Shown here: piece by piece, positions 22,495 through 61,577 of the stretch
Layout of the letters: each line of letters begins with the position of its first letter
How positions within the stretch are numbered: position 1 is the stretch's first letter
NCBI GenBank assembly: GCA_030583685.1
Contig: CP129470.1
Location: forward strand, 84,345-148,344
Source of the DNA: Candidatus Dojkabacteria bacterium
GTDB lineage: Bacteria; Patescibacteriota; Dojkabacteria; GCA-002793355
Reading direction: 5' to 3'
Length of the DNA stretch: 64,000 nucleotides
Position numbers and translations under genes: made by a program
The notes under the pieces: generated by a model
The model's database searches: none
Seen by the model: the letters and a program-made list of their open reading frames with translations, nothing else
Told to the model about the DNA's origin: nothing

Positions 22495-23265
22495 ATGACT
22501 GATTACAAACTAACAAATCTCCCCATTCAATTTGCAGAAGACCATATTCATGTTGATGAATCCTTTTTGGCGATTACCAAATCAAACACTTTTCTTACCA
22601 AACACTTGAGAAAATATTATCTGAGCACCTCTTCGGTTTACCAGAAAATCGTGTACAAATCTTATTTCATTGAGGAGAAGTTCCCTGGCCCATTAACTCG
22701 AAAGAATCTCAAACTAAAGGTAACGACCTTATTTCCTGATGTCGTTGGAATTGAATTTGCGAAAACAAAAACGGTCTATTCAAAAGAACACCCGCGATTA
22801 ATGGAAATTCTCAAAGGTGCAGGACTACTGTTACTCCAAAAAGATACTGCATCGCTTCTTGATGATGCGGTAACGTATGTCTTTGATATTTCTGAAGGTA
22901 ATAAAGTCGTCATTCCACCGAACTGGCACTACACCTTGGTTAATACAGGTAAAGAAACACTCGCAACTGTTGAATTGTACGAAGGCTCACAGAGTTTACA
23001 TCACTGCCATTGCGACCAAAAGGGGACAGGCGTATACATCATTGAACGAAATGGAGTTCCGGAAATTGTTAAAAACTCGCAATACAAAAACCTCGTCAAA
23101 TATGCTACAGTTGACCCAGAAAACTATGCAACTCGTTTCAAAATTGTCCCAACTCAATCTCTTGCTGGTCAGGTCGATACTGTCTTCGATTACTGTACTA
23201 CTTGTTCTCTTGATAGTTGGGAGCAATACCTTAACGACGCAAATAAAGGATTTTTCCCATTCTAA
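22495..23265 (+). CDS. Hypothetical protein (possible beta-barrel or cupin-like fold)
   Basis: 256-aa ORF. Beta-rich C-terminal half ('VVIPPNWHYTLVNTGKETLATVELYEG'). No confident family. Its 3' end overlaps the start region of the next gene. Confidence 0.4.
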   Translation: MTDYKLTNLPIQFAEDHIHVDESFLAITKSNTFLTKHLRKYYLSTSSVYQKIVYKSYFIEEKFPGPLTRKNLKLKVTTLFPDVVGIEFAKTKTVYSKEHPRLMEILKGAGLLLLQKDTASLLDDAVTYVFDISEGNKVVIPPNWHYTLVNTGKETLATVELYEGSQSLHHCHCDQKGTGVYIIERNGVPEIVKNSQYKNLVKYATVDPENYATRFKIVPTQSLAGQVDTVFDYCTTCSLDSWEQYLNDANKGFFPF

Positions 23266-24763
23266 CTGGCAAGTTTCCGCACAATCCCCACAAACAAAAA
23301 AGAAAACGTTTGACGAGCAGGTGTCTCTGCAATTTTATGTAACTGCCGATTATTCGATAACTGTTGAAGGAGTCATTGAATTAACGAACACTTCAGGTAA
23401 AGATCTCTCCTTGACGCAGTACGACATGAATCTGCCGTACTTTACCCTCCGCAATACGAAAATTGGGTACATCTATCCGAAGGCCTTCTTAGTTGACATG
23501 TATAGTCAAAGCAATTCCATTCTTTTTACGTTTAAGTCCCTCTATACGCGTCCAGTCGTTGTTGGAAAAAATGGAAAGATCACGTTTACTTTTTCAGCTG
23601 ATGTTGAAAAGCCCTATCGAGACCTCGGAGGTTTACGGACACTTTCTTTTCCTTTCATGCTTGAAGAAGAAAATCGAAAAGTGAGTATTACCGTAACGGT
23701 TAACGACCAATTAACGCTTCTTTCTGCACCAAACGTTGCAACACAACTAAAAGAACGGTCAATCTTTCCTGTTACTGATGCAACAGGGAAACTCTTTCTT
23801 TTTGGAATTTCTCCCGAACCCCTTTCGCTTACGTTCTCACACAAAGCAGAAGTACCTTTACCTCCCTTTCTTGATTCTTCCTCCTGCATCGACTATCAAC
23901 CGACCTCCTGTATTGGGTGCGAAACAATTAAAAGTATTGCTCAGCCACAACGAACCTATGCAATTGGAAAAAAGGACTCGAACACTACAGCACTTACCTT
24001 TTCAAGAACAATCGATACACAATGTATGGAGGAGAAGTACAAAAAGAGTACGACTCACTCTGAAACAACAGCGGGAAGTAAAATTGCTGGTTTTCTTATC
24101 TCCCCGGTCACACAGCAACTCATCCCTGCTCACTGGCAAACACAAATACTTCCCGATGGTGCAAGTTTAACAAGCAACATAGCGACAGCAGGAGTTCCGA
24201 CAGCCTATACAGAATCGCTTGGACTTCTCACCATACCTCTTTATCCGTGCAATTCGGACGATGAATGCATCCAGTTCGTTAACCACTTGCGTACGGTGGA
24301 AACATCGCTCTCGACAACCCCTGAAATCACTTCAGCGCAACTTGTCACCACTACAGAGCAGGTGCTCGTTGGCGTTACCCAACAAGGAAGGAACTTCGAA
24401 GTTGTGTTGAATAATCCCAGTGAGCATTTTGTTTCACTCGCGTCGATAACATTACAAGACAATCCTTTTTTCACACTTCAGCCGCAACCTTCTTATATTC
24501 TCCCTCCAGGAAGTACAACAAAACTCCAATTAGAAACGAGAAAACGAGTTCAGACCTCTAACCAAGAAACACTTTTGACATTTCTGATTAATGAGGAAGC
24601 AAAACCCGTTACCTTTAAGCCAATCACGATTACCGTTCTTCTCCTCGTCGAACTCTTATCTTACTTGTTTCTTGTTGTGGTTGTTATTTTCTTCGTTTCT
24701 TCTCTTACGATATTCTTGTATAATAAACGTGATGCAAAGAGCCATGTACCGCCGAAACCGTAA
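23102..24763 (+). CDS. Large surface protein with N-terminal signal anchor and C-terminal TM anchor
   Basis: Track ORF 22877..24763. Its first ~75 codons lie inside the previous gene in another frame. Start placed at 'MLQLTQKTMQLVSKL' before the TM segment 'ILSSITVLLVLLIVGS'. The start is uncertain. C-terminal 'ITITVLLLVELLSYLFLVVVVIFFVSSLTIFLY' followed by 'NKRDAKSH'. Confidence 0.4.
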   Translation: MLQLTQKTMQLVSKLSQLNLLLVRSILSSITVLLVLLIVGSNTLTTQIKDFSHSNWQVSAQSPQTKKKTFDEQVSLQFYVTADYSITVEGVIELTNTSGKDLSLTQYDMNLPYFTLRNTKIGYIYPKAFLVDMYSQSNSILFTFKSLYTRPVVVGKNGKITFTFSADVEKPYRDLGGLRTLSFPFMLEEENRKVSITVTVNDQLTLLSAPNVATQLKERSIFPVTDATGKLFLFGISPEPLSLTFSHKAEVPLPPFLDSSSCIDYQPTSCIGCETIKSIAQPQRTYAIGKKDSNTTALTFSRTIDTQCMEEKYKKSTTHSETTAGSKIAGFLISPVTQQLIPAHWQTQILPDGASLTSNIATAGVPTAYTESLGLLTIPLYPCNSDDECIQFVNHLRTVETSLSTTPEITSAQLVTTTEQVLVGVTQQGRNFEVVLNNPSEHFVSLASITLQDNPFFTLQPQPSYILPPGSTTKLQLETRKRVQTSNQETLLTFLINEEAKPVTFKPITITVLLLVELLSYLFLVVVVIFFVSSLTIFLYNKRDAKSHVPPKP

Positions 24764-34176: not shown

Positions 34177-37100
34177 ATGTGGATTTTACTTGGCGTTATC
34201 CTGTTTCTTACATTTTTATACGCAGAAACGCCTGTTACCGCAGTATATTCCACCACACTCACGCTAACTGAAGATACCTACCTCGAAGAGAAATTTCCCG
34301 ATGTATCACCGTGGAATAATAGAAATTTATACCTCGGTACAGACTCCTGGTATGGCAAAGGAAAAACAAGAATTCTCTTGAAGCCAAACTTCTCACTATT
34401 AGCGATGCAACAAATTCTTCCAAACGATATTGAAAAAGTTGAGTTGCTGCTCACCAGTTACGCCTATCAAGGGACAAAAGCTGAAATTGTTATCGATAGT
34501 TACACCACAACCTCCCCATGGTCAATGTTTAGTGCGACCTGGAGTTCTCAACCCACAATAACGAGCAGTAAAAAGGACACCACGATCGTTTCAACGAACA
34601 ATTCTCGCAAAAGTATAACCGTGACAAACGCCTTTCTTGATGCCTACAGAAACTATCCCACTACTGAACGAGGAATTCAATTAAAAGTGAATGCTGAAAC
34701 AGAGAAGGCAATTATTTTTTGGGCACAAAATTGTGATGCGGCGCCAGAGCCTCCTCACTGCTCTGGCGCCGCGGACCATCCACTCTTCAAACTCACCATA
34801 AAACCTAATTCTCCCCCTTCTGTTTGTTCCTTCAAAACACCCGCTCCAAATGTTATCTCGAACAACTCAACGATTGCGTTTGAAGTCCAACCGAGCATCG
34901 ACCCAGACAATGATTCGCTCACCTATCATCTAAAAGTATGTCGAGATACCGCCTGCAACGAAGTCGTATTTGAACAGCAGGTTTCCACCAATTCTAAAAC
35001 TTATTATGACTTCCCAGATGATACGTATTATGTTTCCTGTCTCGCCTTTGATGGGCATGACAGCAATAACAGGTGGAGTAGTCCCCACTATATGACAGTT
35101 GATTCTATACCTCCTATTTCCCCAATTATCGTGCCAGAACCATCGTTTACAGGACAATTACGAAATGTGATTTCTTGGTCAAATTCGGACATTGATGCCA
35201 CATCTTTTCAAGTAGTAGCGAGTGAACGGCAAGATTTCAAATCCTACAATACTTATTCGCCTTGGATTCAAGATGTTTTTTACACTTTCGAGCATACAAA
35301 AGAAAAAACCTATTACTATAAAGTGAGAAGCCGAGACAAAGCGGGAAACGAATCGGAGTGGTCTCACCAGACCTCAACAACAATCGATGCGACCTTTCCT
35401 ACTATACGGTACTTTAGAACAAACAAAACCCTCCTCTCACCAAAAAAGGAGTCAAACGGATCACTTTCTGGGACAGCGTATCTTCAAGGAGGCATTGATG
35501 ATGCAAATATTGGCACCATTTCACTCTTCATCCGAGATCATACGATGAAAAAAGTCTACGAAACGACGGTAGACCAGAAGTCATATTTGTGGCTTCATTG
35601 GCCGGAAACAACATTGTATCCTGACGGAACGTATCTTGCTCAACTTACTGCTCATGACCTTCTTGGTAACGAAATACAAAGCGATATCATCTTTCTCGAG
35701 ATTGATACGACACCTCCTACAAAACCTCGCTATCTTGGCATTAGCAATACTCAAACGATAAAAAGCAATCGCATTTCATTTGAAGTGCGTTGCCAAAGCA
35801 ACGCACTCGCAACGGTGTACGTGAGTGGAAAAATTATCGCTCAACAGCAATCAAGACACCTCGTTTCACTTGAAAAAAAAGATGGATCATACACAACTAA
35901 GGCAACGTGTACCGATGTTGCAGGAAACAAAAGCGAAACATCACTCTCCTTTTCTATAGACACAACACCGCCAAGCACGCCAAGCATTACGTTTCTTCAT
36001 GATGAGAAAAAGAAACAGCTAACATTGCAGGTGTATTGCAGAGAAGACGGGGCTACTCAGTTTTACAAAAACGGTTTTGCTTTCCATGAAGTGTCCTGTC
36101 TCAAAGGAAAATATGCAACGACCCTAGAAAAAGAAGTTGCAGTTCCGTATACCGCTTCGTTTACCGCTCGTGTTCGTGACAAAGTAGGGAACTGGAGTGA
36201 TTTAGGAGAAAAAACGGTACTGCTGCGTGCGCCCAGTCTCCCTGCAGCCATAAAACCAACCATTGCCTGTAGTATCGTTTACCACAAAACGCAGCAAAAA
36301 TACTTACAAGAAGCATGTGCATTATCAGGAAGCTCTCTACTTTCGTATCAAAACACAATTCCCGTTGGAAAACACTATGTTTCAACAATAGAAGTGAATC
36401 ACCCAACGAAAGTGAGCGTCACTATTTCAATAGTGCATTGTCTTCCCAAGAGTTTTTGGGATCCACGAACTTGGTTTTCCTGTGTTGAAGAACCTTATGA
36501 GACAATTACTCAACGAGCGACAGCCACGCCTGTACTACACGCAGCAGAAGCAAACTCACTTTCATTAACCTCGGTTAGCCAGAAGGAAATTACTGCGACT
36601 CATGAAAAAACTGACTTGCTCCGCATTGCAACAAGATTTCTCGTCTCCTATTCCTTTGTCACGGGAAACACCTATTCCACACGATCAACACTCACGCAAA
36701 AACAAGTTGTAACACTTTCTCCACGATACACCCAACTGAGTTCGAAACAGTATTTCTCTTGGTTATTTTCTGGTCCTCGACAGGTAAGCCAATGGTACGG
36801 GAATACCGCATATCAAAAACCTCATGCGGGAATTGACTTTTCAGTTGCTCAAGAGAAAATACTCGCACCTGCGGAGGGAACAATTGTCAGTGCAACCTAC
36901 CATAAAGCATCATCGTGTTTTGCAGGAGGATACTATCTTGCAATAAAACATCCAAATGGCCTATACACCTATTATTTTCATCTCAAAAATATTCTGAAGC
37001 AAGATGGAAAAACAGCCTATAAACCTGGTAATACCATCAAGCGAGGGGCATTCCTAGCAACAAGCGGAAACTCAGGAATGTACAACTGCGAACCATTAGC

Positions 37101-37257
37101 AGCTCACCTGCATTTTGAGTTGCGCTCATCTCAAAAGACTACTTCCCACCTTAACCCAGTACCGTATTTCTCAGTTAACTGGAACACCATTGTTACTGCA
37201 AAAGCAAAGCAATATCCAGGACGCCTCACAGGGGAGAACCCTCATCCTCAATTTTAA
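34177..37257 (+). CDS. 1026-aa secreted multidomain protein with C-terminal M23 (lysostaphin-like) metallopeptidase domain
   Basis: Signal peptide 'MWILLGVILFLTFLYAETPVTA'. Long beta-rich N-terminal region (Ig/FN3-like segments; 'CDAAPEPPHCSGAADHP'). C-terminal M23 motifs 'HAGIDFSV' (HxxxD) and 'AAHLHFEL' (HxH). Confidence 0.7.
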   Translation: MWILLGVILFLTFLYAETPVTAVYSTTLTLTEDTYLEEKFPDVSPWNNRNLYLGTDSWYGKGKTRILLKPNFSLLAMQQILPNDIEKVELLLTSYAYQGTKAEIVIDSYTTTSPWSMFSATWSSQPTITSSKKDTTIVSTNNSRKSITVTNAFLDAYRNYPTTERGIQLKVNAETEKAIIFWAQNCDAAPEPPHCSGAADHPLFKLTIKPNSPPSVCSFKTPAPNVISNNSTIAFEVQPSIDPDNDSLTYHLKVCRDTACNEVVFEQQVSTNSKTYYDFPDDTYYVSCLAFDGHDSNNRWSSPHYMTVDSIPPISPIIVPEPSFTGQLRNVISWSNSDIDATSFQVVASERQDFKSYNTYSPWIQDVFYTFEHTKEKTYYYKVRSRDKAGNESEWSHQTSTTIDATFPTIRYFRTNKTLLSPKKESNGSLSGTAYLQGGIDDANIGTISLFIRDHTMKKVYETTVDQKSYLWLHWPETTLYPDGTYLAQLTAHDLLGNEIQSDIIFLEIDTTPPTKPRYLGISNTQTIKSNRISFEVRCQSNALATVYVSGKIIAQQQSRHLVSLEKKDGSYTTKATCTDVAGNKSETSLSFSIDTTPPSTPSITFLHDEKKKQLTLQVYCREDGATQFYKNGFAFHEVSCLKGKYATTLEKEVAVPYTASFTARVRDKVGNWSDLGEKTVLLRAPSLPAAIKPTIACSIVYHKTQQKYLQEACALSGSSLLSYQNTIPVGKHYVSTIEVNHPTKVSVTISIVHCLPKSFWDPRTWFSCVEEPYETITQRATATPVLHAAEANSLSLTSVSQKEITATHEKTDLLRIATRFLVSYSFVTGNTYSTRSTLTQKQVVTLSPRYTQLSSKQYFSWLFSGPRQVSQWYGNTAYQKPHAGIDFSVAQEKILAPAEGTIVSATYHKASSCFAGGYYLAIKHPNGLYTYYFHLKNILKQDGKTAYKPGNTIKRGAFLATSGNSGMYNCEPLAAHLHFELRSSQKTTSHLNPVPYFSVNWNTIVTAKAKQYPGRLTGENPHPQF

Positions 37258-54413: not shown

Positions 54414-54464
54414 TCACCATTTTACCATGATTCCGATTCAGAATCGAGGAAAGAACCTTGGTTA

Positions 54465-57400
54465 ATGGCCGAATTTATGGTATTGTATGAAAATAGTATG
54501 AACGAGAAATCTGCAGAAAACGTACACGGATCTATCAAAAAATTTACCAGAATTATGGTATTTATTGCACTCGGGTTTGTAGGACTCTACATTTTTATCT
54601 TTATGCAACTCAAACAAACTGAGTCTCAATTGACAAGTTATGGAAATATTAGTGATTCTGCAATTGGAAACTTTCTTGAAAAACTTCCAGAAAGTAATTC
54701 AATTAAAATAGAACGAACTGTTGATGGAATCACCTTCGTTGTCAAAGGCGGAGAAGGAAGTTCACTCAACGCGGATATGCTTGATAGTAAAGATTCCGGG
54801 TATTTTTTGAACTTGAGCAATATGGTCTCAGGGACACTCAGCAACGATTATTATGATGCATGGGGAAATCTTGAAAGCAAGGGATATATTGAGAATGGCA
54901 AAATCAAACCTGCATACCTTCCGTTAGTAAACTCCTCCGGAGAAATTACTTCAATTTCTTGGAATGATATTACCAACAAACCAACAATCCCTACCCCGAT
55001 AAGTGAATCACAAGTACGTGATTTCGTGTCGCAATCCGCAATCAATCTTTCCAGTGGCAGCACCGTAAATAGCCAAACTATTGCCTCGCAAAGTTGGGTA
55101 AGTTCGCAAGGATATTTATCATCGATTGATTTTTCCCAACTGACTAATGGAGTAGGCATCTATCTTGACTATCGCCCAAACAATACTGCCTGTTCTCATG
55201 ACCAAGTCCTTAAATATGATGCTGGTTTAAATAGATGGATTTGTGCAAATGATGCCGGCGCCGGTGCAGTTTCTTGGGGAGCAATTGGTGGAACACTTGC
55301 AGACCAGACTGATTTACAAAACGCACTGAATAGCAAATTAAATGCCAATACAACATTTGGGGGAGATGTTACAGGGACCTACGATAACATTGCTGTTTCA
55401 AATGACTCGCACAGTCATACTGGTGCGACCATTTCTGGACTTGCACCCAGCAATTTTTCCTCGCCAAACATTTCTCAATGGGCAAACGATGCAGGGTATC
55501 TTACATCCGTCACGAAAAGTAGTATCACAAACTCAGGAACACTCGGTTTTACCTGGAATGCAACAGAGCTTTCTTCATCCGTCATGGTTGAAGGTGAAAA
55601 TATCTCGCTCTTAACCAACGATTCGGGATATCTCACTTCAGTGACCAAAAGCACCATTTCGAATTCGGGAACTCTTGGCTTTACATGGGGAACTGCGGAA
55701 TTGGCAAGCACTGTTATGGTAGAAGGTGAAAATATCTCGCTACTAAACAATGATGCGGGATTTCTCACCGGTGTCACCTTTGCCACAGTCACGAATGCTG
55801 TAGGCGTCTATCTTGATTACCGACCAAACAATTCTGCCTGTGCTCAAGATCAGGTCTTGAAGTACGACGCAGGCTTAAATAGATGGATTTGTGGTACAGA
55901 TATCGGAATTGGTTCAGTGACCTGGGGAGCAATTGGTGGAACACTTGCAGACCAGAATGATTTACAAAACGCACTGAATAGCAAACTAAATGCCAACGCA
56001 ACTTTCGGCGGCGATGTTACAGGAACCTACGATAGCATTGCTGTTTCAAATGACTCACACAGTCATACTGGTGCGACCATTTCTGGACTTGCACCCAGCA
56101 ATTTTTCCTCGCCAAACATTTCCCAATGGACCAACGATGCAGGGTATATTTCTGGAGTCAATTTTTCACAGATTGCTAATGGTTCTGGCGTTTATCTTGA
56201 CTATCGACCCAACAATACCGCCTGTGACCACAATCAAGTATTGAAATATGATGCAGCATTGACTCGGTGGATTTGCTCCAACGACCAAGGTGCAGGAACC
56301 ATCTCCTGGGGAGACATAACGGGAGACCTTTCAGATCAATCTGATATTACAACTGCACTCTCAAGCAAGTTAAATACAACCGCAGATTTCGCGGGTGATA
56401 TTAGTGGAACGTACGATAATATCACCGTTTCAAATGATTCTCACAGTCATACAGGGGCGACTATTTCCGGGTTAACCACCAGCAATTTCACGTCACAAGA
56501 CATCTCGCAATGGACAAATAATGCGGGGTATATCTCTGGAGTAAATTTCTCACAAATTACGAATGGCTCTGGCGTTTACCTTGACTATCGCCCGAACAAT
56601 ACCGCTTGTTTAGATGGACAGATTCTTATTTACAGTAGCGCGAACAACCGCTGGCTCTGTGGTGAGAATGCAGGTGGGGGAGGCGGCGGTGGAGAGGTCA
56701 CCATAGGTTCAATGACCGGAACTTCTTTGTTTACAGATTCTTCAGCTGATGATGATTGGCTGGGACTAGGTGCAAGCGCAGGAAGAATTCAATTTGACGA
56801 CCAAGCAACAGACTCAATCCTTCTACTCGATGCAAACGTTGGGATCGGAACAACAACGCCAACGCATACGCTCACTATTGCTGGGAATCTTGGAATTGAA
56901 GAGAATGGCTATCTAAATTTTGGAGATACAAATGGGTCTGGAGGATATGGATTGCGAGACGCAAGTGGTGTTATTGAATTAAAAAACCTCACCGGTTCTT
57001 GGGATCCCATAATTACCGAAGCACCAGCTGATGGAAAATATTATGCACGAAAGGATGAAGCATGGGTAGAAATTCCTGTCGCCGACAATACTTGGTCAAC
57101 GTCGAATATTGAATGGTTTGTCGGGGGGACAAAGGTAACCTTATCAAGTAACAGCACCCAGCGGTATAAGGTAAATAATGGTGTTGTTACCATAGTTGGT
57201 AACTTGATTGCTCAAACAGGCGTTAATCTTACCGGTGTTTTTGAATTACGGAATTTCCCTGTACCGTTTGTAAATGAGGTCGATTTACAAATTACTGGCC
57301 ATGGAGAATGGACGAACCAAGGAACAAACTTTGTCACCACCCGACTCTACGTCTCAGATACAACCAACGATTACATGCGCATGAGTATATTCAATACCTT

Positions 57401-57962
57401 TACCAACCTCTCCGATACTGTTAATGGAACACAGAATGATGGAATTCAATTTATTTTGACTTATGAAACGACTGCAGGAAACCCAGGATTTGCTGCATAT
57501 ACGCCACCAAGTATCATGTTACAACAGCAACTTGCAAACGGCACAGATGGAGGTGCTGCAGTTGCAAATACGTGGTCTACGCTTGCGATTAATACTGAAG
57601 TCTATGATTCACACAATAAAGCCACACTTTCTTCGAATCAATTCACGTTACAAGCGGGAACTTACGACATAGACGCAGAGTCAACCTTTTATAACACTCG
57701 CGCAACGGCACTTCGCCTGAGGAATATTTCTGATAGCACAACAACGCTGATTAGTACGATGAGCTACCTCTCGACAAACGGAGGGGGTATTGTCAGGCTT
57801 ACAGGAAGATTTACCATTGAATCGGCAAAAACATTTGAACTCCAATATATTGCAGAACAAGCTCAGACCACCTATGGACTTGGAACTGCAATGGGGACAC
57901 GAGCAAGTAACTATACAGGTGTAGAAATATTTAGAACCATACGATTAATAAAGATTCAATAA
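54465..57962 (+). CDS. 1165-aa N-terminally membrane-anchored repeat protein (tail-fibre-like surface adhesin candidate)
   Basis: TM 'IMVFIALGFVGLYIFIFMQL'. Four copies of 'YLDYRPNN[TS]AC-x14-W[IL]C' (at about 55150, 55800, 56190, 56575), near-identical at DNA level. Three copies of 'VSNDSHSHTGATISGL'. A G7 run (about 56670-56695). Beta-rich C-terminal about 400 aa. Confidence 0.55.
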   Translation: MAEFMVLYENSMNEKSAENVHGSIKKFTRIMVFIALGFVGLYIFIFMQLKQTESQLTSYGNISDSAIGNFLEKLPESNSIKIERTVDGITFVVKGGEGSSLNADMLDSKDSGYFLNLSNMVSGTLSNDYYDAWGNLESKGYIENGKIKPAYLPLVNSSGEITSISWNDITNKPTIPTPISESQVRDFVSQSAINLSSGSTVNSQTIASQSWVSSQGYLSSIDFSQLTNGVGIYLDYRPNNTACSHDQVLKYDAGLNRWICANDAGAGAVSWGAIGGTLADQTDLQNALNSKLNANTTFGGDVTGTYDNIAVSNDSHSHTGATISGLAPSNFSSPNISQWANDAGYLTSVTKSSITNSGTLGFTWNATELSSSVMVEGENISLLTNDSGYLTSVTKSTISNSGTLGFTWGTAELASTVMVEGENISLLNNDAGFLTGVTFATVTNAVGVYLDYRPNNSACAQDQVLKYDAGLNRWICGTDIGIGSVTWGAIGGTLADQNDLQNALNSKLNANATFGGDVTGTYDSIAVSNDSHSHTGATISGLAPSNFSSPNISQWTNDAGYISGVNFSQIANGSGVYLDYRPNNTACDHNQVLKYDAALTRWICSNDQGAGTISWGDITGDLSDQSDITTALSSKLNTTADFAGDISGTYDNITVSNDSHSHTGATISGLTTSNFTSQDISQWTNNAGYISGVNFSQITNGSGVYLDYRPNNTACLDGQILIYSSANNRWLCGENAGGGGGGGEVTIGSMTGTSLFTDSSADDDWLGLGASAGRIQFDDQATDSILLLDANVGIGTTTPTHTLTIAGNLGIEENGYLNFGDTNGSGGYGLRDASGVIELKNLTGSWDPIITEAPADGKYYARKDEAWVEIPVADNTWSTSNIEWFVGGTKVTLSSNSTQRYKVNNGVVTIVGNLIAQTGVNLTGVFELRNFPVPFVNEVDLQITGHGEWTNQGTNFVTTRLYVSDTTNDYMRMSIFNTFTNLSDTVNGTQNDGIQFILTYETTAGNPGFAAYTPPSIMLQQQLANGTDGGAAVANTWSTLAINTEVYDSHNKATLSSNQFTLQAGTYDIDAESTFYNTRATALRLRNISDSTTTLISTMSYLSTNGGGIVRLTGRFTIESAKTFELQYIAEQAQTTYGLGTAMGTRASNYTGVEIFRTIRLIKIQ

Positions 57963-60314: not shown

Positions 60315-61577
60315 TTGCTACTCTACAGTATGAAAAATCGTATTTTCTTGGCAATCCCACTCTTTCTCATTGCATTATTACTCACCACTGCGTCTTCCAG
60401 AAGCGTCTCTGCACAAACAACGCCTACACCAACTATGAATTCTGCACTCGCTGACGCTGAGCTTGAACGAGAAAAGCAGATCACGCAAGAACTGTCACTT
60501 AATATGCCCGATCAAACAGATGATCCTAACTATCCAATCACGTTTGTTGATCCCAGCAAGCAAGGAGTCGATATTACCATTGACGATAAAACAACGACAA
60601 AGGCGCCAAGTCCGTTTCTCTTACCAAACCTCTCTATTGGCCAGCATAAAATAATTTTCAAATTTAAAACAAAAGATGGAGTCGTCAGAGTCCTTTCGAA
60701 AACCCTCCTGGTAATCCCAAAATCACCCCAATTCGATCAGACAGTAAAAACTCAGGTTGTGAGGCCAGCCCAGGTCACCATAACGGGTACGGCACTTCCA
60801 CAATCGACAGTAATGTTAGTCATCAATAGTACAACGGTACATAAAATTTCTTCAAATTCCGAAGGGAAATGGGAATTTATCGTTCCTGAGCCCAAAGAAG
60901 GAGAAAATCACCTTGTTGCTTTTACCATCAGAAACGGAATCGTCAGTGCCGCCTCGAACTCATTTACCGTTTCCTATTCTCGCAACGCTACCCAGCAGAC
61001 TGACGAGAACGAAACCAATGCACCAAGTATCGAATCTCAATTACTTGCCCAAGTACAAAGCATACTCTCTAATATTGATAGGAACAGAATAGAAAATCCG
61101 AAACTCTTTTACGGTGTCATTGGCGGAGCACTTATTGTCATATTGCTCATGATTGATTTACGGCTCCGAAAACGCGCTGCAAAATCAAAGGAAGAAAAAA
61201 CAATTGCCTCACTTCTCGGAAACCTTCAAGAAGGAGCAGGAACTATCGTTGAAGCAATTCAATCCACCAACAAACCTGTTCTTGCACCAAAAAATACTAA
61301 AACCGAACTCGTTTCAGCGAAGAAAAACCCTCAGAAAAAAGCAGAAACAACAAAAACAGAAGAAAGCAAAAATACTGAAAAGGAACCTGTACCTACGAAA
61401 GAAAATTCCCGCACAAAGCCAAAGAAACCAATAATTCGCATAAAAAAGCGGGTCATCAAATCAAAGCCACTTACCGCGGAAGTCCCTGAAGAATTAACAC
61501 CAGATGAACCAGAAAAGAAAGTACTCACCAAAGATGAGTTCCTCAAGCAGTTTCAGCAGGATGACGAGCAAGCCTAA
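60315..61577 (+). CDS. Hypothetical secreted/bitopic protein with Lys-rich cytoplasmic tail
   Basis: Signal peptide 'IFLAIPLFLIALLLTTASSRSVSAQ'. Beta-rich ectodomain. TM 'LFYGVIGGALIVILLMIDL'. Then 'KKNPQKKAETTKTEESKNTEKEPVPTKENSRTKPKKP...'. Confidence 0.4.
   Translation: MLLYSMKNRIFLAIPLFLIALLLTTASSRSVSAQTTPTPTMNSALADAELEREKQITQELSLNMPDQTDDPNYPITFVDPSKQGVDITIDDKTTTKAPSPFLLPNLSIGQHKIIFKFKTKDGVVRVLSKTLLVIPKSPQFDQTVKTQVVRPAQVTITGTALPQSTVMLVINSTTVHKISSNSEGKWEFIVPEPKEGENHLVAFTIRNGIVSAASNSFTVSYSRNATQQTDENETNAPSIESQLLAQVQSILSNIDRNRIENPKLFYGVIGGALIVILLMIDLRLRKRAAKSKEEKTIASLLGNLQEGAGTIVEAIQSTNKPVLAPKNTKTELVSAKKNPQKKAETTKTEESKNTEKEPVPTKENSRTKPKKPIIRIKKRVIKSKPLTAEVPEELTPDEPEKKVLTKDEFLKQFQQDDEQA

What the first reader, a model, noticed from the sequence alone, without database searches (positions are those of the whole stretch)
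54465..57962. Giant membrane-anchored protein built from near-identical intragenic repeats with Cys pairs and recurring H-S-H motifs (tail-fibre-like)
This 1165-aa ORF has a single N-terminal TM helix and then modular repeats.
- 'YLDYRPNNTAC(S/A/D)HDQVLKYDAGLNRWIC' occurs four times.
- 'GDVTGTYDNIAVSNDSHSHTGATISGLAPSNFSSPNISQW(A/T)NDAGY' occurs three times.
- A duplicated 'SVTKS(S/T)I(T/S)NSGTLGFTW...VMVEGENISLL' module is also present.
- Copies are about 90% identical at nucleotide level, so they arose by recent intragenic duplication and are prone to length variation.
- A G7 run follows the last repeat, then a roughly 400-aa beta-rich C-terminal domain.
- Short repeats with one conserved HxH each and Cys pairs are what trimeric phage fibre or needle domains use to coordinate metal ions. 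T4 gp37-type HxH iron sites are the best-known case.
- A cell-anchored, fibre-like trimer would fit a host- or partner-attachment adhesin of an episymbiotic bacterium. It could also be a domesticated phage fibre.
Basis: partly seen in the sequence, partly recalled or inferred. Interest (0 to 1): 0.7.

Follow-up and report, generated by a model that had tools for sequence, protein, structure and literature searches.

The report
Membrane-anchored phage-fibre-like adhesin of Dojkabacteria
A tiny, probably symbiotic bacterium (Candidatus Dojkabacteria) encodes a long, membrane-anchored surface fibre assembled from the same building blocks as phage tail fibres, ending in a head of the three-part TNF/C1q type, and it most likely uses this fibre to grip another cell.

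Summary
The 1165-aa ORF at 54465-57962 (+) is real. The TM helix, motif counts, four Cys pairs, three H-S-H motifs, G7 linker and all-beta C-terminus are confirmed. The claim of about 90% nucleotide identity from recent duplication is not: copies are 55-84% identical, and unit 3 is closer to the equivalent unit of other species than to its own siblings.

The protein is 100% identical to a hypothetical protein of Candidatus Dojkabacteria. It lies between tsaD and argS in a housekeeping locus that is syntenic in a relative, so it is not in a prophage.

Its parts are phage-fibre parts:
- The last 150 aa match phage tail-fibre C-termini (E 8e-11).
- A T4-foldon-like hairpin sits at aa 850-870.
- The neck module best matches the Bd2133 MAT beta-helix, weakly.
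- Relatives keep the stalk and swap heads.

Best reading: a homotrimeric, membrane-anchored mosaic adhesin that works like Bdellovibrio MAT fibres. Trimerisation, metal binding by the invariant HxH and the ligand remain inferred. I rate it a new variant of a known kind, of moderate interest.

The parts
54465..57962 (+). Whole gene: 1165-aa membrane-anchored mosaic fibre protein (NCBI calls the start at Met12, giving 1154 aa)
54549..54608 (+). N-terminal TM signal anchor, aa 29-48, preceded by KKFTR (positive-inside, so N-in/C-out)
   Evidence: the same anchor is present in homologues P0003, P0006, P0004 and P0007
54627..55124 (+). Membrane-proximal stalk, aa 55-220. It carries short fibre motifs (LNADMLDSKDSGYF, ISWNDITNKPT) that are shared with P0003/P0006 and repeated in P0016/P0024/P0014.
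55125..55505 (+). Stalk unit 1, aa 221-347: Cys-stapled hairpin, PTR-like helix, HxH strand, NISQW module
55506..55772 (+). Two 44-aa 'SVTKS...VMVEGENISLLxND(A/S)G(Y/F)LT' modules, aa 348-436, inserted between units 1 and 2. The same module occurs up to 8 times in P0011.
55773..56156 (+). Stalk unit 2, aa 437-564
56157..56540 (+). Stalk unit 3, aa 565-692. It is orthologous to the last full unit of P0006, P0007, P0004 and P0002.
56541..56672 (+). Terminal Cys-hairpin module only (partial unit 4), aa 693-736
55410..55418 (+). H-S-H codons of unit 1. The other two copies are at 56058-56066 and 56442-56450. They are candidate metal ligands. H96, H98 and T99 of the unit are invariant in 19 of 19 copies.
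56673..56693 (+). Gly7 linker, aa 737-743, encoded by mixed GGN codons
56694..57008 (+). 'Neck' module, aa 744-848, with a VGIGTTTPTHTL loop motif. In relatives it is repeated before most of the head domains (not all: P0004 and P0007 each have a head that follows the poly-Gly linker directly). Its best solved match is the beta-helix of Bdellovibrio MAT fibre Bd2133.
57009..57077 (+). Foldon-like beta-hairpin, aa 849-871 (ITEAPADGKYYARKDEAWVEI; 12 of 21 residues identical to the foldon variant in PDB 8udn)
   Evidence: P0022 passes the Pfam Fibritin_C cut-off at the matching stretch
57078..57509 (+). Middle beta domain, aa 872-1015. The fold is unknown. Among the 23 other proteins it matched only the syntenic orthologue P0003.
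   Evidence: pLDDT about 45-55
57510..57959 (+). C-terminal tip, aa 1016-1165: C1q/TNF-like jelly roll, homologous to the C-termini of phage tail fibres

Best explanation
The gene encodes a chromosomal surface fibre that is not part of a virion. One N-terminal TM helix per chain anchors it in the membrane of a monoderm Dojkabacteria cell. The roughly 1100 extracellular residues are proposed to form a homotrimeric fibre. Scaling from the Bdellovibrio MAT fibre Bd3182 gives a length of roughly 50-70 nm, which is an inference.

The stalk is a string of short fibre mini-modules. Each 128-aa unit holds four of them:
- a beta-hairpin stapled by a C-x16-C disulfide;
- a PTR-type (phage tail repeat) short helix;
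- a strand carrying an invariant H-x-H-T, which in a trimer would put six His around the axis and could hold a metal ion;
- an 'NISQWTNDxGY' connector.

A Gly7 hinge follows, then in order:
- a MAT/S74-stalk-like beta-helical neck;
- a foldon-like hairpin that clamps and registers the three chains;
- a middle domain of unknown fold;
- a C1q/TNF-like trimeric head that serves as the ligand-binding tip, most likely for a glycan or surface protein of a partner or host cell.

Across relatives the anchor and stalk are kept while the heads are swapped or multiplied. This is the logic of a specificity-determining adhesin.

Shown: the sequence anatomy, the homologies, the fold of the tip and the genomic context. 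Inferred: trimerisation, disulfides, metal binding, ligand and biological role.
For: Identity and context:
- The protein is 100% identical to a Candidatus Dojkabacteria hypothetical protein on an 888,748-bp contig.
- Its neighbours are tsaD, an MFS transporter, a glycosyltransferase, argS, def and ftsW.
- The orthologue P0003 sits in the same tsaE-GT-MFS-tsaD-[fibre]-argS-def locus.
- Other relatives also have housekeeping neighbours and no phage genes.
- GC content is as in the rest of the window.

Phage-fibre kinship:
- phrog_24210 'tail fiber' matches aa 1021-1155 at 3e-15, and phrog_25379 'tail protein' matches the PTR-like stretch at 1e-11.
- tblastn hits Sulfitobacter phage pCB2047 and Synechococcus phage S-RIP1, annotated as tail fibre in most of these records (31%, E 8e-11).
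- tblastn also hits the cyanophage S-B68 giant tail fibre (25% over 79% of the stalk region, E 2e-7). That fibre carries a Cys-less version of the hairpin and the NISELTND module.

Tip:
- It has 298 homologues, and the domain is C-terminal in 120 of 123 proteins examined, some of which have collagen repeats.
- AF2 pLDDT is above 94.
- BFVD hits are viral collagen/C1q fibre heads.

Trimer clamps and stalk:
- The foldon match is E 0.31 alone. A family profile hits T4 fibritin at E 1.2e-10.
- The neck profile's best PDB hit is the Bd2133 trimeric beta-helix (E 0.018).
- Both Cys, W38, H96, H98 and T99 are invariant in 19 unit copies.
- All 8 Cys of the protein lie in the four pairs.
- AF2 places a hairpin between the paired Cys.

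Mosaicism:
- Relatives share the anchor and stalk but carry different heads in different numbers, including Laminin_G_3/ConA-like heads.

Functional precedent:
- Bdellovibrio MAT fibres with TNF-like tips bind prey glycans (PMC10769870).
Against: - No oligomer could be modelled. Trimerisation rests on the oligomeric state of structural relatives (from my own knowledge and the entry titles, not computed here) and on short motifs.
- The foldon match of the query alone is weak (Pfam 14.6 bits against a cut-off of 21). The profile test is partly circular because the segments were picked with a foldon-like regex.
- The neck-to-Bd2133 match is borderline (E 0.018).
- The stalk unit has no solved relative (0 PDB hits at E<=10). 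Its monomer model is uninformative and was built from only 13 sequences.
- HxH occurs once per 128 aa, unlike the dense arrays of T4 gp37, and no metal evidence exists.
- Nothing links the protein to a host cell. Dojkabacteria are uncultured and their lifestyle is itself inferred.
- The middle domain is unexplained.
Confidence: 0.62

Rival explanations
1. The protein is the same trimeric surface fibre, but its job is not attachment to a host cell. It could bind abiotic or polymeric substrates, mediate self-aggregation or biofilm formation, or act as a decoy or shield that soaks up phages.
For: - C1q/TNF-like and ConA-like heads are generic lectin-type binders.
- No experimental link to a host exists.
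- Several paralogues with different heads can sit side by side, which would also fit a role in scavenging diverse glycans.
Against: - The architecture of a long stalk, a hinge and swappable tips is the one used by phages and by Bdellovibrio to recognise cell surfaces (PMC10769870).
- The tip's sequence relatives include phage tail fibres, although most of the 298 homologues are unannotated.
- From the literature, cultivated candidate-phyla-radiation bacteria are obligate episymbionts (abstract of 10.1101/2024.11.25.624915).
Confidence: 0.2
2. The protein is a monomeric beads-on-a-string repeat adhesin or S-layer-like protein. On this view the repeats are small autonomous domains and the resemblance to phage fibres is only at motif level.
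For: - The unit has no solved relative.
- The Cys-stapled hairpin could fold on its own.
- Proteins rich in Cys hairpins (P0163, P0173) have no PHROG match at E<=1e-5.
Against: - The monomer model has no confident fold (pLDDT 46.7, pTM 0.23).
- The C-terminal head has a fold found in trimeric proteins.
- There is a foldon-like hairpin.
- The neck matches an intertwined trimeric beta-helix.
- The PTR and NISxxTND modules are shared with a bona fide phage fibre.
Confidence: 0.1
3. The protein is a true phage or tailocin tail fibre encoded by a prophage remnant, meaning a recently acquired, virion-associated protein.
For: Sequence and fold homology to phage tail fibres.
Against: - It has an N-terminal TM anchor instead of a baseplate-attachment domain.
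- Housekeeping genes flank it on both sides, and this arrangement is conserved in a second genome.
- No phage genes occur near any homologue examined.
- Base composition is native.
- The repeats are old.
Confidence: 0.04

Closest known systems
Bdellovibrio bacteriovorus MAT (mosaic adhesive trimer) fibres, NS74 subgroup (Bd2133, Bd2439, Bd2734; PMC10769870)
   Same: - Both are chromosomal, cell-surface, phage-related fibres of about 1000 aa in a bacterium that lives on other bacteria.
- The stalk is conserved and the C-terminal tips are swappable.
- The neck has the VGIGTxxPxxxL loop motif and gives its best PDB profile hit to the Bd2133 beta-helix.
- There is no S74 chaperone.
   Different: - The phylum differs (Patescibacteria, a monoderm lineage).
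- Anchoring is by an N-terminal TM helix, whereas MAT fibres have a conserved soluble N-terminal domain.
- The stalk is built of Cys-hairpin, PTR, HxH and NISQW units that are not described for MATs.
- A foldon-like clamp is present.
- Sequence similarity is marginal (E 0.018).
Phage tail fibres with the same C-terminal tip (Sulfitobacter phages pCB2047-A/C, Synechococcus phage S-RIP1) and the solved cyanophage A-1(L) short tail fibre CBD (8KE9) and A4 tail fibre (9K09)
   Same: - The 150-aa tip is homologous (31% identity, E 8e-11).
- The domain is C-terminal in 120 of 123 proteins examined.
   Different: - The gene is not in a virion gene cluster.
- The protein is membrane-anchored.
- It is much longer and has a different stalk.
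BclA / F-BclA C-terminal domain of the Bacillus exosporium and ENA fibres (1WCK, 3TWI, 9H38)
   Same: - It is likewise the distal head of a bacterial surface filament.
   Different: - Sequence identity is only 9-14%.
- BclA has a collagen-like GXY stalk, which is absent here.
- The anchoring differs.
T4 fibritin foldon (Pfam Fibritin_C, 1RFO)
   Same: - 12 of 21 residues are identical to the foldon variant in PDB 8udn, including residues that align with E5, P7, D9, G10, Y13, R15, D17 and W20 of the foldon.
- A family profile hits the foldon at E 1.2e-10.
- AF2 predicts a hairpin there.
   Different: - The motif is internal rather than C-terminal.
- It is below the Pfam cut-off in the query.
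- No fibritin coiled coil is present.
HxH metal sites of T4 gp37 (Fe) and related phage fibres and spikes
   Same: The HxH is strictly conserved with a variable middle residue in a fibre protein. The literature links such motifs to octahedral Fe coordination by three chains (PMC11705849).
   Different: - No sequence homology to the gp37 or gp12 chains in the PDB was found.
- There is one site per 128-aa unit rather than a dense array.
- Metal binding is untested.

Membership tests
Bdellovibrio MAT superfamily | Intertwined trimeric beta-helix/prism stalk with the capping-loop motif V-G-G/N-pi-x-x-P-x-x-x-L | tested here: inconclusive
   The query has VGIGTTTPTHTL at aa 792-803. This is the form seen in Bd2133 (V-G-I-G/N-T-x-x-P-x-x-x-L), one residue longer than the consensus as printed in the paper. 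The neck profile A5 gives Bd2133 (8OND) as its best PDB hit, but only at E 0.018. The motif is as described in PMC10769870.
Bdellovibrio MAT superfamily | Variable, independently folding C-terminal adhesive tip (TNF-like in Bd2439 and Bd2734) | tested here: met
   [not shown]
Bdellovibrio MAT superfamily | Conserved MAT N-terminal (cell-proximal) domain | not tested
The query has a TM helix at its N-terminus, which differs from the paper's description.
Bdellovibrio MAT superfamily | Homotrimer along the whole length; surface-exposed | not testable with these tools
   Only monomer predictions are offered. The monomer stalk model is unstructured.
Phage tail fibre / receptor-binding protein | Sequence homology to annotated tail fibre proteins | tested here: met
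   phrog_24210 at 3e-15 and phrog_25379 at 1e-11; tblastn at E 8e-11 and 2e-7.
Phage tail fibre / receptor-binding protein | Encoded within a virion or tail structural gene cluster | tested here: not met
   The flanks are tsaD and argS/def/ftsW. The locus is syntenic in L001. No phage genes occur near P0002, P0005 or P0009.
C1q/TNF-like trimeric head (BclA-CTD type) | Compact jelly-roll beta-sandwich of the C1q/TNF topology | tested here: met
   [not shown]
C1q/TNF-like trimeric head (BclA-CTD type) | Collagen-like GXY stalk preceding the head (BclA, C1q) | tested here: not met
   The query sequence has no GXY repeats. Some tip homologues (P0099, P0100) do have them.
Pfam Fibritin_C (foldon) | Score above the Pfam gathering threshold | tested here: not met
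   The query scores 14.6 bits against a cut-off of 21. Relative P0022 scores 24.7 bits at the stretch that aligns to the query motif.
Pfam Fibritin_C (foldon) | Foldon hairpin signature (E-A-P-x-D-G-x-x-Y-x-R-K-D/N-G-x-W-V) | tested here: met
   12 of 21 residues are identical. The profile of 15 family segments hits the T4 foldon at E 1.2e-10. The segments were selected with a regex, so this test is partly circular.
T4 gp37/gp12-type HxH metal site | Conserved H-x-H in a fibre repeat | tested here: met
   H96 and H98 are invariant in 19 of 19 unit copies, with x being S, E, D, N, R, L or A.
T4 gp37/gp12-type HxH metal site | Homology to the gp37 needle or gp12 domain | tested here: not met
   No PDB sequence hit for the protein or for the unit profile at E<=10.
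T4 gp37/gp12-type HxH metal site | Six His from three chains in octahedral geometry around a metal | not testable with these tools
   This needs a trimer model with ions, or an experiment.
Pfam PTR (PF12789, phage tail repeat like) | Score above the gathering threshold | tested here: not met
   The query has no PTR hit at E<=1. Unit positions 46-83 match P0014 and P0022. Both proteins pass PTR at 4.6e-33 and 8.7e-31.
Peptidase_S74 intramolecular chaperone fibres | C-terminal S74 domain | tested here: not met
   No S74 hit in Pfam. The C-terminus is the TNF-like head.

The most novel reading that the evidence does not exclude
Dojkabacteria, and more widely Patescibacteria, may determine which cell they attach to with membrane-anchored trimeric fibres built from phage receptor-binding-protein parts. 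On this reading the heads are exchanged with phage tail fibres and between paralogues, so the symbiont's host range evolves by the same tip-swapping as a phage's. The stalk would be a previously undescribed fibre repeat in which each 128-aa unit is fixed by three hairpin disulfides and one His6-metal site on the axis.
Probability: 0.3. Interest if true: 0.75.

Novelty: new variant of a known kind. Interest (0 to 1): 0.55.

Why it matters
How ultrasmall candidate-phyla-radiation bacteria find and hold their hosts is largely unknown. In the papers found here, type IV pili are the mechanism that has been tested. A conserved, syntenic, phage-fibre-like adhesin with swappable heads would be a concrete, testable candidate for the specificity determinant in an uncultured lineage. 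It would also extend the Bdellovibrio MAT principle, in which bacteria that live on bacteria reuse phage receptor-binding architecture, to a second and very distant phylum. The tip domain (298 homologues, no Pfam model) and the stalk unit (1973 representative proteins carry at least one of its mini-modules) are uncatalogued building blocks. Describing them would improve annotation of many giant 'hypothetical' surface proteins.

Tried and rejected
- Pfam scan of the whole protein: nothing above cut-off.
- PDB sequence search: the protein gave only marginal hits, and the stalk-unit profile gave none.
- tblastn of the protein against the window: no paralogue in these 64 kb.
- AF2 of two stalk units as a monomer: low confidence. 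I ran no further search on it because matches would be meaningless.
- The search for homologous proteins with the unit profile returned only 6 proteins and missed obvious relatives, so the word index is a poor tool for this repeat. The exhaustive search was used instead.
- Pfam and PHROG scans of ten proteins rich in single mini-modules: Pfam gave nothing above its cut-offs. PHROGs gave phage hits for 6 of the 10, mostly to families of unknown function. The two PTR-rich proteins hit phrog_25379 'tail protein', two of the four HxH-rich proteins hit tail-fibre-related PHROGs, and the two Cys-hairpin-rich proteins had no hit.
- Promoter and terminator scan: background level.
- The afdb50 fold library was unavailable.
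- Slippage at the G7 run was rejected because the codons are mixed.
- Prophage origin was rejected on context and synteny.


Full report
**Observation.** The ORF at 54465-57962 (+) exists and encodes 1165 aa. NCBI annotates the same gene from Met12 (1154 aa, 100% identical) as a hypothetical protein of a Candidatus Dojkabacteria bacterium on an 888,748-bp contig.

- All quoted motifs are present. YLDYRPNN[ST]AC occurs four times. There are eight Cys in total, all in four C-x16-C pairs. HSH occurs three times and is the only HxH in the protein. The SVTKS...VMVEGENISLL module is duplicated. G7 lies at aa 737-743.
- A single hydrophobic helix (aa 29-48) follows KKFTR, giving an N-in/C-out signal anchor.
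- The statement about the age of the repeats is wrong. In-register nucleotide identity is 84% for units 1 and 2, 68% for either against unit 3, 55-62% for the partial fourth copy and 69% for the two 44-aa modules. Third-codon-position identity falls to 32-47% except for U1/U2, where it is 74%.
- Unit 3 is more similar to the last full unit of four other proteins (69-74%) than to its own siblings (66-68%). The array is therefore old and maintained by selection, and only U1/U2 look recently duplicated or converted.
- The longest exact repeat is 65 nt, and the G7 run uses mixed GGN codons.

**Anatomy.** The protein reads, in order:
- TM anchor (aa 29-48).
- A membrane-proximal stalk (aa 55-220).
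- Three 128-aa units (aa 221-347, 437-564 and 565-692), with two 44-aa modules inserted after the first.
- A lone Cys-hairpin module (aa 693-736).
- The Gly7 linker.
- A 105-aa 'neck' (aa 744-848).
- A foldon-like hairpin (aa 850-870).
- A middle beta domain (aa 872-1015).
- A 150-aa tip (aa 1016-1165).

*Stalk unit.* In an alignment of 19 unit copies from eight proteins, both Cys, the Trp before the second Cys, both His and the following Thr are invariant. The residue between the His is S, E, D, N, R, L or A. An exhaustive profile search of 1.84 billion representative proteins finds 1973 proteins at E<=1e-3, 358 at E<=1e-10 and 44 at E<=1e-30. In these the four sub-modules (Cys hairpin, PTR-like helix, HxH strand, NISQW connector) mostly occur separately, often many times in giant proteins. 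The '128-aa repeat' is therefore a fixed composite of independently shuffling mini-modules. The composite itself is confined to a small group of Dojkabacteria-like proteins.

**Kinship with phage fibres.**
- PHROGs match a 'tail fiber protein' family at aa 1021-1155 (3e-15) and a 'tail protein' family at the PTR-like stretch (1e-11).
- tblastn against 50,697 phage records hits Sulfitobacter phages pCB2047-A/C and NYA-2014a and Synechococcus phage S-RIP1 with the tip (31% identity, E 8e-11). Most of these records annotate the protein as a tail fibre.
- The stalk region hits the giant tail fibre of cyanophage S-B68 (25% over 79% of the region, E 2e-7). That phage fibre has the NISELTNDxGY connector and a Cys-less version of the hairpin (ATGEVLRYNGSAWVDA) but no HxH.
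- Distant relatives P0014 and P0022 pass Pfam PTR ('phage tail repeat like'), and the unit profile matches both proteins (P0014 over unit positions 46-83). The query itself does not reach that model.

**The tip.**
- A search with aa 846-1165 returned 298 homologues, none with a Pfam domain over this region. Many are proteins of about 200 aa from marine metagenomes, and some follow collagen repeats.
- The domain is C-terminal in 120 of 123 proteins examined.
- With a 76-sequence alignment, AF2 models aa 1015-1162 at pLDDT above 94. The middle domain is poorly modelled.
- Foldseek against viral models returns collagen/C1q-type fibre heads and the S-RIP1 tail fibre.
- The listed TNF-ligand, C1q and BclA heads are trimers as far as I know. 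This is my own knowledge and was not computed here. It is the strongest argument that the whole protein is a trimer.

**Other trimer indicators.**
- aa 850-870 (ITEAPADGKYYARKDEAWVEI) shares 12 of 21 residues with a T4 fibritin foldon variant (PDB 8udn; E 0.31 against the PDB; Pfam Fibritin_C 14.6 bits, below the cut-off of 21).
- The orthologue P0003 has EAPTDGKYYVRKDGAWV.
- P0022 passes the Fibritin_C cut-off at the aligned stretch.
- Twenty-three such segments occur among the 292 fetched proteins. A profile of 15 of them hits the T4 foldon at E 1.2e-10. The selecting regex fixed six of the positions, so this test is partly circular.
- The neck profile's best PDB hit is the intertwined trimeric beta-helix of MAT fibre Bd2133 (E 0.018), aligned across the VGIGTxAPxxKL loops. 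These loops correspond to the capping-loop motif described for MAT and S74 proteins (PMC10769870).
- A monomer AF2 model of two stalk units has no confident fold (pLDDT 46.7, pTM 0.23). It shows only a hairpin between the paired Cys and a short helix in the PTR-like stretch. The shallow alignment (13 sequences) is an alternative cause of the low confidence.

**Context.**
- The neighbours are tsaD (divergent, upstream), argS, def, an uncharacterised membrane protein and ftsW. GC content is 0.42-0.43 against a window range of 0.40-0.44.
- P0003 lies in the same tsaE-glycosyltransferase-MFS-tsaD-[fibre]-argS-def locus in another assembly. It carries extra cassettes and a different terminal domain.
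- P0002, P0005 and P0009 are also among housekeeping genes. P0009 and P0010 are near-tandem paralogues.
- No phage genes, tail-fibre chaperone or S74 domain were seen.

**Mosaicism.**
- Relatives keep the TM anchor and the stalk units (two to four or more units).
- They then carry one to four head domains behind poly-Gly linkers, most of them preceded by a neck module. The heads include the TNF-like tip (twice in P0005, once in P0007), a Laminin_G_3/ConA-like domain (P0004), a recurring domain ending in DWFRR, and others.

**Interpretation.**
- I conclude that this is a chromosomal, membrane-anchored, very probably homotrimeric fibre adhesin. It follows the design principle of Bdellovibrio MAT fibres, which are surface-exposed, phage-related, about 1000 aa long, have swappable tips including TNF-like ones, and in the case of Bd2439 bind GlcNAc and prey O-antigens.
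- It differs in phylum, in anchoring (a TM helix) and in stalk composition. The MAT paper's main text does not mention Patescibacteria, and my literature searches found no description of such fibres in candidate-phyla-radiation bacteria. The papers retrieved on this point tested type IV pili in Saccharibacteria.
- The HxH-metal idea is reasonable. The motif is invariant with a variable middle residue, and there is a literature precedent for Fe coordination by HxH in T4 gp37 and predicted sites in marine phage fibres (PMC11705849). It remains untested, and no homology to the solved gp37 or gp12 chains was detected.
- The exclusive pairing of all eight Cys, their invariance and the predicted hairpin make one disulfide staple per hairpin likely. 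The phage version lacks it.
- Ligand and biological role are inferred.

**Verdict.** The fibre and trimer interpretation is supported, while metal binding and host attachment remain open. The finding is a new variant of a known kind, of moderate interest.

Noticed in passing
window 34177-37257 (+): A 1026-aa protein carries a bacterial Ig-like Big_13 domain and a C-terminal Peptidase_M23 domain. It could be an extracellular peptidoglycan hydrolase, possibly relevant to feeding on or remodelling a host cell wall.
   Followed up: partly
window 60315-61577 (+): A 420-aa protein has an N-terminal signal-like sequence, a second hydrophobic stretch near aa 265-285 and a Lys/Glu-rich C-terminal tail. 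It has no Pfam match. A protein of similar size (476 aa) occupies the same position after def in L001.
   Followed up: no
L003 10001-15179: Fibre paralogues P0009 (871 aa) and P0010 (682 aa) lie almost in tandem, separated by a 150-aa ORF, in a housekeeping region. Their last two stalk units are nearly identical, but their C-terminal domains differ.
   Followed up: partly
L004 8620-8985: A 121-aa thioredoxin-family gene lies directly downstream of the 2029-aa fibre homologue P0005. This could relate to disulfide formation in the Cys-hairpin modules.
   Followed up: no
L001 7212-7847: The syntenic locus has an extra 211-aa gene without Pfam hits between tsaD and the fibre gene. That gene is absent from the window, where the gap is only 51 bp (54414-54464).
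   Followed up: no
proteins P0025-P0031: Some tip-domain homologues consist of nothing but two tandem copies of the TNF-like domain (about 300 aa). One homologue (P0057) starts with a PilX_N pilin-like segment. The head is therefore also mounted on other kinds of filament.
   Followed up: no
window 22877-24763 (+): A 628-aa ORF has no Pfam match and overlaps a 256-aa ORF (22495-23265) in another frame.
   Followed up: no
The word-indexed homology search with the unit profile returned only 6 proteins and missed P0002-P0010. The exhaustive search found 1973 proteins. The indexed tool therefore has low sensitivity for short mosaic repeats.
   Followed up: yes
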